DNA from: a virus
Taxonomy: Duplodnaviria; Heunggongvirae; Uroviricota; Caudoviricetes
Length of the DNA stretch: 6,123 nt
IMG/VR virus record: IMGVR_UViG_2537561689_000012
Direction: 5' to 3' (one strand)
Numbering within the stretch: position 1 is the first letter of the stretch; each line of letters begins with the position of its first letter. The notes below the pieces were generated by a model. It saw nothing but the letters and a program-made list of their open reading frames with translations, did not search any database and had not been told where the DNA came from. Both the position numbers and the translations under genes were made by a program. This document shows, piece by piece, positions 3,062 through 4,132 of this stretch.

Positions 3062-4132
3062 TTACCCCCTGAAGCCCGGCGGAATTTCGTTATCCGGTTC
3101 AGAAATATGATTCACACAACGCTGGTTGTTCGTGCCGCTTACCGGGAGCAACCAGGGGTTCTCAAAATTCCGGTCCGGTCCAAAAAACGTCGTCGCTCGC
3201 TGAACAAATTCCGTTCCCGTTTTCCCGGTAGCCGCCAAGTATCTTGCGTAACGCCTCACGCCATCCAGCATGGCCTCTGGTGGCACCCCCTCGCGTAATC
3301 TGGCCTTCCAGGCACTGAAAGCGGATTTCTTCGGGTTTGCCCCAGCACGCAACGGGTACTCCCGCCAGACCTGTTCGAACACATCCGGATAATCCACTCG
3401 TCCCACAGACTGCCCGGTGTTTTCCGGGACTACCCGATCGGCTTCCCGCTGAATGGCGGAATCGGCTTCAGGCTGCTGCAGTTGGTGTGATTGCTCCGCC
3501 CTTGCGGTCATCACCTGCTGCACAGCGCCCGAATCGGCTTTCAGCGCATACGCTGAATCGGCTTCCGGTGTCGTGCCTGCTGGCTGACCAAGATTGACGG
3601 TCTGAACATCCCCTGCCTGGTTCGTGGCGTTTTTTACGCCATGGACCATAGTGTTTTGATCTTCTTGATCTGTATCTTTATCTGTATCTTTATCTGTCGT
3701 GACTCGTCGTGACATGTGCGTGACATTTCGTGACGCGCCGTGACAATTGCCATTTTGTTCCCGCTTTCTTTCCCTCTCTCGCTGCGCCCTCTTGCGCTCT
3801 GCAGGAGATTTTGCGGTTTGCGAAATATTGCCGTTGTCCTCTTTAAGCACCTGGCGTTTTTCCCATCCAGTGATTAAATCACCATCAAGTACCCGCCCCT
3901 GCATCGTCTGCAAAATTGAATCAATTACCTCTTCTGTCACGTCGAGCGCACTTGCCAAATCTTCTGTCGTGACATCAATGTGACCTCGCGTGACATTTCG
4001 TGACGCGCTCACCAGGAGGTGGATATACACTGCCATCACTGTTGCAATTGGCTGCCCTGACACCCTGGCAATTGTTCGCCACTTAGGGTCATTTGGCATG
4101 TCATGCCATAATCTGAGCCAAGCGTTAGCCAT
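3062..4132 (-). CDS. Phage replication initiator, lambda-O-like / YdaU-like organisation: N-terminal DNA-binding region, low-complexity acidic linker, conserved C-terminal domain
   Basis: ORF track gives 3062..4138 from a GTG. I prefer the ATG at 4130-4132 (MANAWLRLWH...) because SD GAGGTG lies about five nt upstream. Position directly after the cro-like and YdaT-like genes. Iteron array and tandem repeat are embedded in the linker-coding region. The linker translates as DKDTDKDTD. Confidence 0.65.
   Translation of the reverse strand: MANAWLRLWHDMPNDPKWRTIARVSGQPIATVMAVYIHLLVSASRNVTRGHIDVTTEDLASALDVTEEVIDSILQTMQGRVLDGDLITGWEKRQVLKEDNGNISQTAKSPAERKRAQRERERKREQNGNCHGASRNVTHMSRRVTTDKDTDKDTDQEDQNTMVHGVKNATNQAGDVQTVNLGQPAGTTPEADSAYALKADSGAVQQVMTARAEQSHQLQQPEADSAIQREADRVVPENTGQSVGRVDYPDVFEQVWREYPLRAGANPKKSAFSAWKARLREGVPPEAMLDGVRRYARYLAATGKTGTEFVQRATTFFGPDRNFENPWLLPVSGTNNQRCVNHISEPDNEIPPGFRG
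3668..3697. repeat. Tandem repeat (ATCTGTATCTTT) x2.5, i.e. ATCT(G/T)T x5; AT-rich tract next to the iterons
   Basis: Seen directly: atctgtatcttt atctgtatcttt atctgt. Encodes TDKDTDKDTD on the minus strand. Confidence 0.8.
3698..3744. repeat. Iteron-like array: five CGTGAC hexamers at 3698, 3708, 3719, 3729, 3739 (10-11 bp phasing); putative origin iterons inside the rep gene
   Basis: Seen directly. The helical-repeat phasing and the adjacent AT-rich tandem repeat mirror the lambda origin lying inside gene O. Origin function is inferred. Confidence 0.55.
3968..4004. repeat. Second iteron-like cluster: CGTGAC at 3968, TGTGAC at 3979, CGTGAC at 3989 and 3999 (10-11 bp phasing)
   Basis: Seen directly. 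Contains a perfect 21-bp copy (3988-4008, GCGTGACATTTCGTGACGCGC) of 3718-3738. Confidence 0.5.

What the first reader, a model, noticed from the sequence alone, without database searches (positions are those of the whole stretch)
3718..4008. Perfect 21-bp direct repeat GCGTGACATTTCGTGACGCGC occurs twice inside the rep gene, 270 bp apart
Copies at 3718-3738 and 3988-4008 each sit within a cluster of phased (C/T)GTGAC hexamers (second cluster at 3968, 3979, 3989, 3999). At the protein level they give repeated ASRNVT peptides. An exact 21-mer repeat inside a coding region is unusual. It could mean two initiator-binding arrays (a bipartite origin or a DNA-looping site) or an internal duplication, and it is a substrate for recombinational deletion of the intervening 270 bp.
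Basis: seen in the sequence. Interest (0 to 1): 0.45.

Follow-up and report, generated by a model that had tools for sequence, protein, structure and literature searches.

The report
Second iteron array inside phage initiator gene
The 21-bp repeat belongs to two arrays of short initiator-binding repeats inside a prophage replication gene, and comparison with about 80 relatives shows that the unexpected second array, which lies in the part of the gene coding for the protein's own DNA-binding domain, is conserved and selected at the DNA level, so it is not a recent accidental duplication.

Summary
GCGTGACATTTCGTGACGCGC occurs exactly twice, 270 bp apart, inside a 358-aa phage replication initiator gene (4138-3062, minus strand).

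Each copy sits in an array of CGTGAC cores (GTCACG on the gene strand) spaced 10-11 bp.
- **Array B** has 5 units (3698-3744). It lies in the disordered linker next to an AT-rich tract and a hairpin, which is a lambda-ori-like origin core.
- **Array A** has 4 units (3968-4004) plus one inverted unit (3936-3941). It lies in the coding sequence of the winged-helix N-terminal domain.

In 69 homologous loci from many Proteobacteria, the core chosen from B alone recurs at least 3 times in region A in 49 loci (0.14 expected). The core differs between clades (GTCACG, GTGACG, GCAACG, GTAACG, CGAACGC) but is the same in both arrays of a gene. Synonymous codons are nearly invariant exactly at the cores in two independent classes (p about 5e-6 and 7e-6).

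Only B is followed by an AT-rich tract, and about a quarter of relatives lack A.

Best reading: A is an auxiliary initiator-binding array that works with the origin core. Binding and role are inferred, not tested.

The perfect 21-mer itself is incidental, because spacer SNPs break it in about a quarter of close relatives.

This is a new variant of a known kind, in a replication module type that has not been studied.

The parts
3062..4138 (-). Replication initiator (Rep, 'O-like' replisome organizer) gene. The mechanical ORF starts at GTG 4138. The likely true start is ATG 4132, which follows GAGG. Domains: N-terminal winged-helix domain (aa 6-95), basic helix (112-132), disordered linker (about 133-250), helical C-terminal domain (250-320).
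   Evidence: phrog_3729, E = 1e-256, full length; TIGR01714 at E = 0.016, below cutoff; DnaT C-terminus at E = 7e-4; AF2 model, pLDDT 83-97 for aa 11-90. Homologues start MAN(A/S)W.
3698..3744 (-). Iteron array B. Five direct CGTGAC units (GTCACG on the gene strand) at 3698, 3708, 3719, 3729 and 3739, spaced 10-11 bp. It covers codons 132-147 in the disordered linker and is the proposed origin core.
   Evidence: An array of this kind was detected at this position in 69 of 81 homologous loci scanned and is followed by an AT-rich tract.
3718..3738 (.). First copy of the exact 21-mer. It spans units B2-B3 (gene-strand numbering) plus their spacer.
3640..3697 (.). AT-rich, purine-rich (gene strand) tract with three 12-bp repeats (TCTTKATCTGTM, 3663-3698; GATAAAGATACA on the gene strand). 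It is the proposed DNA-unwinding element. It is also the mosaic junction where the C-terminal half of the gene recombines independently.
   Evidence: family D3; GC 0.33-0.35, the lowest in the gene; 48 loci: GC 0.34 after B against 0.56 gene-wide; homology breaks at query positions 596-614, which is window 3657-3675.
3618..3648 (.). Inverted repeat or hairpin (13-pair stem) on the far side of the AT-rich tract. It completes a lambda-ori-like order of iterons, then AT-rich tract, then palindrome.
   Evidence: The comparison with ori-lambda rests on established knowledge of lambda.
3968..4004 (-). Iteron array A. Four direct units at 3968, 3979 (TGTGAC), 3989 and 3999, spaced 10-11 bp. It covers codons 45-57, which form the end of helix 31-47 and the surface loop 48-57 before the helix-turn-helix.
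   Evidence: Conservation and co-variation with B. Synonymous-codon invariance at the cores.
3988..4008 (.). Second copy of the exact 21-mer. It spans units A1-A2 (gene-strand numbering) plus their spacer.
3936..3941 (+). Single inverted unit (GTCACG on the + strand), 33 nt downstream of array A on the gene strand. It covers codons 66-68 (D-V-T, the turn of the HTH).
   Evidence: Val67 is GTG in 19/19 homologues, with synonymous identity 0.99. It is present in L001 and L002.

Best explanation
The 21-bp repeat is the best-matching stretch shared by two arrays of the same short iteron. The core is GTCACG on the gene strand, repeated every 10-11 bp, so the units lie on one face of the helix.

Array B, together with the adjacent AT-rich tract and hairpin, is the origin core. 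It sits in the linker-coding middle of the initiator gene, as in lambda and SPP1.

Array A (four direct units plus one inverted unit, about 230 bp upstream) is a second, auxiliary binding array for the same initiator. It is written into the codons of a surface loop of the initiator's own winged-helix domain.

Proposed mechanism (inferred):
1. Rep N-terminal domains bind the units of both arrays head to tail.
2. Rep-Rep contacts bridge A and B, looping or wrapping the roughly 230 bp between them into one compact nucleoprotein complex.
3. This stabilises initiator loading and helps open the AT-rich tract next to B.
4. The host helicase is recruited there through the C-terminal domain, because this module encodes no helicase or loader.

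What is shown:
- The arrays exist.
- They are conserved.
- Their cores co-vary.
- Their cores are under DNA-level selection.
- Only B has an unwinding tract.

What is inferred:
- Rep binds the units.
- The arrays cooperate.
- The effect on initiation is positive.
For: - **Non-random arrays.** There are 0/200 shuffles with the 21-mer. Nine phased direct units lie in two clusters.
- **The gene is an initiator.** Phrog_3729 matches at full length. The AF2 model shows a winged helix at aa 6-95, with array A coding the loop 48-57 and array B coding disordered linker.
- **Conservation.** Aeromonas phage pAEv1818 and Pseudomonas phage phi1 (69-70% aa identity) have both arrays at the same codons with 10/10/11 spacing.
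- **Blind test.** The 5-mer was chosen from region B only and then counted in region A. Of 69 loci, 49 have 3 or more copies, against 0.14 expected per 140 nt.
- **Co-variation.** The cores are GTCACG, GTGACG, GCAACG, GTAACG and CGAACGC in different clades, and always the same in A and B of one gene.
- **DNA-level selection.** In 22 GTCACG-class genes (median 69% nt identity), synonymous-codon identity is 0.82 in array A against 0.40 elsewhere (p = 5e-6). Core codons are invariant (TCA, GTC, ACG, GGT, CAC) while spacer codons vary freely. In 13 CGAACGC-class genes the values are 0.91 against 0.46 (p = 7e-6). The units fall in all three reading frames.
- **Only B looks like an origin core.** In the window, GC is 0.33 next to B. 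Across 48 loci, GC is 0.34 after B against 0.52 after A (p = 3e-9). A hairpin lies beyond the AT tract.
- **The specificity module travels together.** The N-domain, A and B form one mosaic block, with the junction in the AT tract.
Against: - There is no binding, replication or looping experiment for any family member in the searchable literature.
- About a quarter of relatives have array B only, including lineages nested among A-bearing ones (L139, L122). Array A is therefore dispensable, not an obligatory half of the origin.
- The A-to-B distance shows no clearly conserved helical phase across classes, with fractional turns from 0.0 to 0.95. This does not help a strict looping model.
- The sign of the effect cannot be read from sequence, and a negative regulatory role fits the same data.
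- Eighteen of 49 loci share a two-unit 15-21-nt string between A and B, so some gene conversion between the arrays may contribute to their similarity.
Confidence: 0.5

Rival explanations
1. Array A is a negative control element and not part of the initiation complex. Rep bound inside its own 5' coding region could do one of three things:
- It could titrate or handcuff the initiator, as the control iterons of P1 (incA) or F (incC) do.
- It could act as a roadblock that lowers transcription of rep and downstream genes (autoregulation).
- It could limit transcriptional activation of the origin.
For: It is compatible with all the conservation, co-variation and synonymous-site data. Array A has no unwinding tract of its own. 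It is dispensable in some lineages, as accessory control elements usually are. Separate control arrays carrying the same iteron as the origin are established in iteron plasmids (own knowledge).
Against: A lytic-phase phage has no obvious need for copy-number limitation. A roadblock 135 nt into the first replication gene would also impede pR-type read-through into downstream early genes. No promoter-like site is associated with array A.
Confidence: 0.22
2. Array A is a replication-fork or helicase barrier. Rep bound to A and B blocks the fork that moves back toward the immunity region. Replication then becomes unidirectional, co-oriented with early transcription, which favours the switch to rolling-circle mode. 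This is analogous to the proposed stalling of forks at gp38 bound to SPP1 oriR.
For: A and B have the same orientation, and both lie on the side of the AT-rich tract that faces cro/cI. SPP1 gp38 binds a second site, and a fork-stalling role has been proposed for it (PMC6316719).
Against: This is purely by analogy. Array B alone could serve as a barrier. No sequence feature distinguishes this reading from the others.
Confidence: 0.1
3. Array A has no function. It is an old internal duplication of origin iterons that happens to be tolerated in a surface loop. Gene conversion from the selected array B keeps it similar to B.
For: The loop tolerates very different sequences and insertions. For example, E. 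albertii L086 has 6 units and 7 extra residues. Eighteen of 49 loci share two-unit strings between A and B. Array A has been lost repeatedly.
Against: In most lineages the A and B spacers differ while the 5-6-bp cores are invariant. Conversion tracts would copy spacers too. The phasing (10/10/11) and unit number (3-4) are held across genera at 61-87% nt identity. An inverted unit with an invariant GTG codon is also conserved, and it has no counterpart in B.
Confidence: 0.08
4. The repeat reflects protein-level selection for a repeated peptide (ASRNVT) in the initiator, and not selection on a DNA element.
For: The two 21-mers are read in the same frame and give ASRNVT twice.
Against: The units occur in all three reading frames and encode different residues (S, VT, GH, VT). 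Synonymous codons are fixed at the cores although 2-6 codons are available, while adjacent spacer residues vary. Reps with unrelated loop sequences use the same core in array B (L155 compared with the window; L158 and L153 compared with the CGAACGC class).
Confidence: 0.02

Closest known systems
ori-lambda inside gene O of lambdoid phages
   Same: The origin lies inside the initiator's own gene, in the segment coding the inter-domain linker. The order is iteron array, then AT-rich tract, then inverted repeat. The N-terminal DNA-binding domain and the iterons travel as one specificity module, and the C-terminal domain is exchangeable.
   Different: Lambda has one array of four 18-19-bp iterons with internal dyad symmetry, bound by O dimers (six in Stx phages; PMC7466680). 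This gene has a 6-bp core every 10-11 bp as direct repeats, plus a second array in the N-domain coding sequence. It has no Pfam Phage_rep_O match, and no P-type helicase loader gene follows it.
Bacillus phage SPP1 replisome organizer gp38 with oriL and oriR
   Same: The initiator binds direct repeats next to an AT-rich unwinding element inside its own gene (oriL). It also has a second binding region (PMC6316719). PGAP names relatives of the window protein 'phage replisome organizer'. There is a weak TIGR01714 match.
   Different: The SPP1 second site (oriR) is about 13 kb away and intergenic, with its own AT-rich region. Gene 38 shows repeats only in mid-gene. There is no detectable sequence similarity to the window N-domain. 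Here the second array is 230 bp away, inside the DNA-binding-domain coding sequence, and has no AT-rich tract.
Iteron plasmids with separate origin and control arrays (P1 incC/incA, F ori2/incC, R6K)
   Same: The same iteron is present in two arrays near or around the rep gene. One array is part of the origin, and the other modulates initiation by pairing or titration (own knowledge).
   Different: Plasmid iterons are 17-22 bp, lie outside the coding sequence, and are bound by Rep_3-type proteins. The window protein has no such Pfam match. A control function is not shown here.
PICI and SaPI origins, and satellite phage P4 ori/crr
   Same: These are two-part origins built from two sets of the same short repeat bound by one initiator (PICI: PMC6092414; P4: own knowledge).
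   Different: In PICIs the two sets flank the AT-rich melting region. Here the AT-rich tract lies outside both arrays, next to B only. P4 crr is 4.5 kb from ori, and the initiator is a primase-helicase.

Membership tests
Lambda-type intragenic origin (ori inside gene O) | Iteron array inside the initiator gene, in the inter-domain linker | tested here: met
   Array B covers codons 132-147, in the region with pLDDT below 50 after the N-domain.
Lambda-type intragenic origin (ori inside gene O) | AT-rich unwinding tract and inverted repeat next to the iterons | tested here: met
   GC is 0.33 at 3640-3699 and a hairpin lies at 3618-3648. In 48 loci, GC is 0.34 after B against 0.56 gene-wide.
Lambda-type intragenic origin (ori inside gene O) | 18-19-bp iterons with internal dyad symmetry | tested here: not met
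   The units have a 6-bp core and a 10-11-bp period, and are direct repeats.
Lambda-type intragenic origin (ori inside gene O) | Initiator homologous to lambda O (Pfam Phage_rep_O) with a P-type loader gene downstream | tested here: not met
   The protein has no Pfam family at E <= 0.01. The next gene is DUF977/LygF. This matches the 'O-homologue only' modules of PMC12315714.
Phage replisome organizer, N-terminal domain (TIGR01714 / Phage_rep_org_N; SPP1 gp38 type) | N-terminal domain matches the family profile above its cutoff | tested here: inconclusive
   TIGR01714 scores 15.4 bits (E = 0.016) over residues 7-127 and the whole profile, against a cutoff of 49.8. Relatives are annotated 'phage replisome organizer'. 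BLASTP against SPP1 gp38 is not significant.
Phage replisome organizer, N-terminal domain (TIGR01714 / Phage_rep_org_N; SPP1 gp38 type) | Winged-helix N-domain that binds direct repeats located in its own gene | tested here: inconclusive
   The AF2 model shows a helix-turn-helix plus beta wing. Foldseek gives only weak winged-helix regulator matches with E > 0.6. Binding was not tested.
Iteron-plasmid control arrays (handcuffing or titration) | Second array of the same iteron, dispensable for origin firing, that lowers initiation | not testable with these tools
   The same core in both arrays is shown, and array A is absent in some relatives. The sign of the effect needs experiments.
PICI-type two-set origin | Two iteron sets flank the AT-rich melting region | tested here: not met
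   The region between A and B has GC 0.38-0.65. The AT-rich tract lies beyond B.

The most novel reading that the evidence does not exclude
Array A makes the initiator act preferentially in cis and lets origin specificity evolve as one self-contained unit. The binding sites sit in the first 170 nt of the gene, so newly made N-domains, released by coupled transcription-translation, would be captured on the very DNA molecule that encodes them. The domain, array A and array B are also inherited together. A change of core would then spread between the arrays, for example by conversion, and create a new incompatibility or specificity type in few steps. This would be a previously undescribed way of embedding a cis-acting replication element in the codons of the protein domain that reads it.
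Probability: 0.12. Interest if true: 0.8.

Novelty: new variant of a known kind. Interest (0 to 1): 0.57.

Why it matters
Origins inside initiator genes are textbook (lambda, SPP1), but a second array has not been described there. This one has three notable properties:
- It is conserved.
- Its specificity co-varies with the origin array.
- It is written into the codons of the initiator's own DNA-binding domain.

I found no such description in the literature I could search.

The family is common. This exact gene type occurs in about half of complete E. coli genomes (2699 of 5426 have a match). Relatives occur across Gamma-, Beta- and Alphaproteobacteria.

The module belongs to the 'initiator only, no helicase or loader' class of lambdoid phages. 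That class was recently stated to be experimentally unstudied and not understood (PMC12315714; see also PMC8951638).

The finding gives precise, testable cis elements. Synonymous recoding can remove array A without changing the protein. The five core classes form a ready-made specificity series for studying how initiator-origin pairs diversify. The finding is also a clean example of overlapping protein and DNA-site codes that constrain synonymous sites.

Tried and rejected
- **Recombinational deletion.** An exact search of IMG/VR for the junction that recombination between the two 21-mers would create found nothing. The idea is not excluded in general, but nothing supports it.
- **The perfect 21-mer as the functional unit.** Rejected. 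Spacer SNPs break it in 21 of 80 close relatives while the cores persist. Similar two-unit identities occur in only 18 of 49 loci.
- **Self-referential specificity,** meaning that the A-encoded loop reads the iteron. Rejected as the main idea, because Reps with unrelated loops use the same cores in array B (L155, L158, L153, L147).
- **Array A as an independent second origin.** Rejected, because no AT-rich tract follows A.
- **DnaA boxes near the arrays.** No enrichment: 12 hits against 11.6 expected.
- **An internal promoter regulated by the arrays.** There is only one weak promoter-like match, overlapping array B on the antisense strand, and the count is at the chance level.
- **Fold search.** Foldseek of the full-length model against the PDB gave only insignificant winged-helix regulator hits.
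- **First IMG/VR protein scan.** It returned 80 near-identical E. coli loci. These were useless for diversity but useful for micro-variation. The species-dereplicated genome scan supplied the diversity.
- **Helical phasing of the A-B distance.** No clear conservation was seen.
- **Literature.** The searches for a described two-array intragenic phage origin found none.
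Full report
**1. Context**

The window is the immunity and early-right region of an E. coli lambdoid prophage. The rep gene itself (3062-4138) has a 100% identical copy in strain 120899.

The genes, in order:
- A cI-like S24/HTH repressor on the plus strand (ATG 4933 to 5607).
- A P22-Cro-like gene on the minus strand (4841-4626).
- A YdaT/cII-like gene (4629-4204).
- A 358-aa ORF (4138-3062).
- A DUF977/LygF 'Ren-like' gene (3021-2599).
- An IS3 copy and an IS21-family istB downstream of these.

The 358-aa protein matches PHROG 3729 'replication initiation protein' end to end (E = 1e-256). 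It has no Pfam family. It matches TIGR01714 'phage replisome organizer N-terminal region' only weakly (E = 0.016, below the cutoff) and has a short DnaT-like C-terminus (E = 7e-4).

No helicase or loader gene follows it. This fits the 'O homologue only' replication modules that a 2025 survey found in 34 of 314 lambdoid phages. That survey called them experimentally unstudied and 'not yet understood' (PMC12315714).

**2.

The 21-mer occurs exactly twice, at 3718-3738 and 3988-4008, with no near matches elsewhere and 0/200 shuffles.

It is embedded in two arrays of CGTGAC, which reads GTCACG on the gene strand:
- Array B has units at 3698, 3708, 3719, 3729 and 3739.
- Array A has units at 3968, 3979, 3989 and 3999.
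- The spacing is 10-11 bp in both arrays.
- One inverted unit lies at 3936-3941.

**3. Anatomy**

An AlphaFold2 model built on 68 homologues gives these elements:
- A confident N-terminal winged-helix domain (pLDDT 83-97 for aa 11-90).
  - Helices lie at 6-12, 18-27, 31-47, 58-65 and 69-79.
  - A beta wing spans 80-90.
- A basic helix at 112-132.
- A disordered stretch up to about residue 250.
- A helical C-terminal domain.

Array A (codons 45-57) codes the end of helix 31-47 and the surface loop before the helix-turn-helix. The inverted unit codes the HTH turn. Array B (codons 132-147) codes disordered linker.

Immediately after B on the gene strand comes the most AT-rich stretch of the gene. 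Its GC is 0.33 at 3640-3699, and it contains three GATAAAGATACA repeats. A 13-pair hairpin follows at 3618-3648. That order (iterons, AT-rich tract, palindrome, in the linker-coding part of the initiator gene) is the layout of ori-lambda.

E. coli genomes show the gene is mosaic. The junction lies in the AT-rich tract (window 3657-3675). The N-domain, A and B therefore travel together, and the C-terminal half is exchanged separately.

**4. Comparative test**

tblastn against phage genomes found relatives at 32-70% identity.

| Relative | Locus | Units in A | Units in B | Core |
|---|---|---|---|---|
| Aeromonas phage pAEv1818 | L001 | 4 | 3 | GTCACG |
| Pseudomonas phage phi1 | L002 | 4 | 4 | GTCACG |
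| Uncultured Caudoviricetes genome | L003 | array present | array present | CGAACGC |
| Ralstonia phage Hennie | L004 | array present | array present | GCAACG |

In L001 and L002 the units sit at the same codons and with the same 10/10/11 spacing as in the window. In L003 and L004 both arrays sit at the homologous positions.

A scan of one genome per bacterial species returned 80 diverse loci. To avoid circularity, I chose the best phased 5-mer from the linker region only and then counted it in the N-domain region.
- Of 69 loci with a clear B array, 49 have 3 or more copies in a 140-nt window around the A position. The background expectation is 0.14.
- Thirty-nine have 2 or more phased links.
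- Ten have no copy, and one of these (L100) turned out on inspection to have both arrays.

The cores seen are GTCACG, GTGACG, GCAACG, GTAACG and CGAACGC. They always match between the two arrays of one gene.

A neighbour-joining tree of the N-domain, with the A-coded loop masked, shows that the core classes follow clades. It also shows that array A is missing in one deep clade (L151/153/155/158/162) and sporadically elsewhere. For example, L139 sits next to L133, and L122 is a GTCACG B-only member inside a CGAACGC clade.

That criterion is not met for the family as a whole, although array A is clearly accessory.

**5. DNA-level selection**

The units fall in all three reading frames and encode S, VT, GH and VT in array A.

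| Class | Genes | Pairwise nt identity | Synonymous-codon identity in A | Elsewhere in the domain | Mann-Whitney p |
|---|---|---|---|---|---|
| GTCACG | 22 | 61-87% (median 69%) | 0.82 | 0.40 | 5e-6 |
| CGAACGC | 13 | 61-98% (median 68%) | 0.91 | 0.46 | 7e-6 |

In the GTCACG class the core codons are nearly invariant:

| Residue | Codon | Count |
|---|---|---|
| Ser46 | TCA | 21/22 |
| Val49 | GTC | 22/22 |
| Thr50 | ACG | 22/22 |
| Gly52 | GGT | 22/22 |
| His53 | CAC | 21/21 |
| Val56 | GTC | 22/22 |
| Thr57 | ACG | 21/22 |

The spacer codons are free (Arg51 0.29, position 54 0.36). Val67 is GTG in 19/19, which conserves the inverted unit.

In the CGAACGC class the invariant codons are TCG, AAC, ACC, GAA, CGC and CGA.

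This rules out a purely protein-level repeat. It also argues against passive homogenisation by gene conversion, because conversion tracts would copy spacers as well.

**6. The two arrays are not equivalent**

Across 48 loci that have both arrays:

| Region | GC | Purine fraction |
|---|---|---|
| 45 nt after B | 0.34 | 0.74 |
| 45 nt after A | 0.52 | 0.57 |
| Gene-wide | 0.56 | not computed |

The difference between B and A is significant (Wilcoxon p = 3e-9). Only B therefore carries an unwinding tract.

Array A has 3-4 units in most loci, and B has 3-5. The A-to-B distance shows no obviously conserved helical phase.

**7. The perfect 21-mer is incidental**

Among 80 near-identical IMG/VR loci, 57 keep both exact copies at 270 bp. 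Twenty-one carry a spacer SNP in one copy (GCGC to GCGA, AAAT to ATAT, GCGC to GTGC). Seventy-three keep all nine cores.

Across the family, 18 of 49 loci share a 15-21-nt two-unit string between A and B, and the others share only 7-13 nt. The extended unit seems to be (A)TGTCACG. Occasional conversion between the arrays is possible.

The deletion junction expected from recombination between the copies was not found in IMG/VR.

**8. Mechanism**

The best-supported reading is that both arrays are binding sites for the winged-helix domain of the same initiator. B plus the AT-rich tract forms the origin core, and A is an auxiliary array.

I propose that Rep bound at A and B forms one looped or wrapped complex. 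That complex would aid loading and opening at the AT tract. This is inferred, with confidence about 0.5.

The rivals are:
- Negative control by titration, handcuffing or roadblock (0.22).
- A fork barrier that imposes unidirectional replication, by analogy with SPP1 oriR (0.10).
- A non-functional duplication maintained by conversion (0.08).
- A protein-level repeat (0.02).

The idea that the A-encoded loop determines specificity is unlikely. Reps with unrelated loops use the same cores (L155, L158, L153, L147).

An evolutionary hint concerns the loop's conserved E-R-G motif. It is encoded GAA-CGC-GG, which already contains the GAACGC core. The array may therefore have grown from a chance site. 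This is an inference.

**9. Comparison with known systems**

This works like ori-lambda and SPP1 oriL, in which the origin lies inside the initiator gene. It is not a member of the lambda O family: it has no Pfam match, a different iteron type and no P-type loader. Its membership in the replisome-organizer N-domain family is only weakly supported.

SPP1 gene 38 shows repeats only in mid-gene. Two-part iteron origins and control arrays are known: the PICI two sets flank the AT-rich region, and P4 ori/crr and the P1 and F control arrays are known from my own knowledge. None of these is embedded in the coding sequence of the initiator's DNA-binding domain. The PICI layout was tested here and is not met.

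The literature searches found no description of this arrangement. Two papers state that replication of such non-lambda modules is uncharacterised.

**10. Limits**

- There is no experimental evidence for binding or function.
- Array detection used a simple phased 5-mer heuristic. It missed degenerate arrays (L100, L124) and may misclassify others.
- The tree is a quick neighbour-joining tree.
- The co-variation counts are not phylogenetically corrected, although at least five core classes in separate clades show the same A-B match.
- The structural model is confident only for the two folded domains.

**11. Verdict**

The finding is real, non-random and evolutionarily maintained. Novelty: a new variant of a known kind. 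Interest: 0.57.

Noticed in passing
window 3436-3564 (minus-strand rep gene, disordered linker of the C-terminal module): AATCGGCTT (GAAGCCGAT on the gene strand) occurs four times in two pairs, at 3436, 3460, 3532 and 3556, with spacings of 24, 72 and 24. Zero of 200 shuffles reach the observed count. It is part of a 36-nt direct repeat (3437-3472 and 3533-3568) that encodes EADSA-like peptides. Whether it is a DNA site or a protein repeat is unknown.
   Followed up: partly
window 2599-4138: The replication module consists of the initiator alone. The next gene is DUF977/LygF (Ren-like), and there is no helicase or helicase loader. Relatives with other C-terminal halves are followed by DnaB-type or loader genes (L001, L002, L004). 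This matches the unstudied 'O-only' lambdoid modules described in PMC12315714.
   Followed up: partly
window 3657-3675: The mosaic junction lies in the AT-rich tract. Many E. coli genomes match only the C-terminal half of the gene (query 3-596) or only the N-terminal half with both arrays (query 614-1077). Recombination therefore shuffles the two halves exactly at the presumed unwinding element.
   Followed up: partly
window 1269-2527: This is a complete IS3-like element with its inverted repeats. Its first ORF appears frameshifted. The ATG at 1334 runs into a stop after 17 codons, while the rest of the InsE-like reading frame continues in the +1 frame to 1633. It may be a defective copy or a sequencing error.
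   Followed up: no
window 35-1092: The 3' end of an IS21-family istA and a complete istB (IstB_IS21, E = 1e-111) lie next to the IS3 copy. This insertion-sequence cluster sits right after lygF, so the prophage is probably truncated or defective downstream of the replication gene.
   Followed up: no
window 4130-4138: The mechanical ORF start (GTG 4138) is probably wrong. The ATG at 4132 follows a GAGG Shine-Dalgarno sequence that contains the GTG, and homologues begin MAN(A/S)W.
   Followed up: partly
L086 (Escherichia albertii), anchor +116 to +168: Array A has expanded to six units, and the protein loop is 7 residues longer (ASRNVTTCHGVSLRGH). The array can therefore grow by whole units, and the loop tolerates the growth.
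   Followed up: partly
L129 and L150 (Serratia, Pantoea), anchor +310 to +350: These family members carry repeats of ACTACGTA (which contains the palindrome TACGTA) at the array-B position instead of GNNACG-type units. They also have a much longer protein (about 400-440 aa) and no array A.
   Followed up: no
L122 (Noviherbaspirillum MAG): This member sits inside the CGAACGC clade but has three TGTCACGCCA units in array B and no array A. It may be a core switch or a linker swap that coincided with the absence of the second array.
   Followed up: no
protein list: Very many database entries for this protein are annotated as 'partial' replisome organizers from short contigs. This may mean that assemblies often break in or near this gene, which has several copies per genome (up to 5 places per genome).
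   Followed up: no
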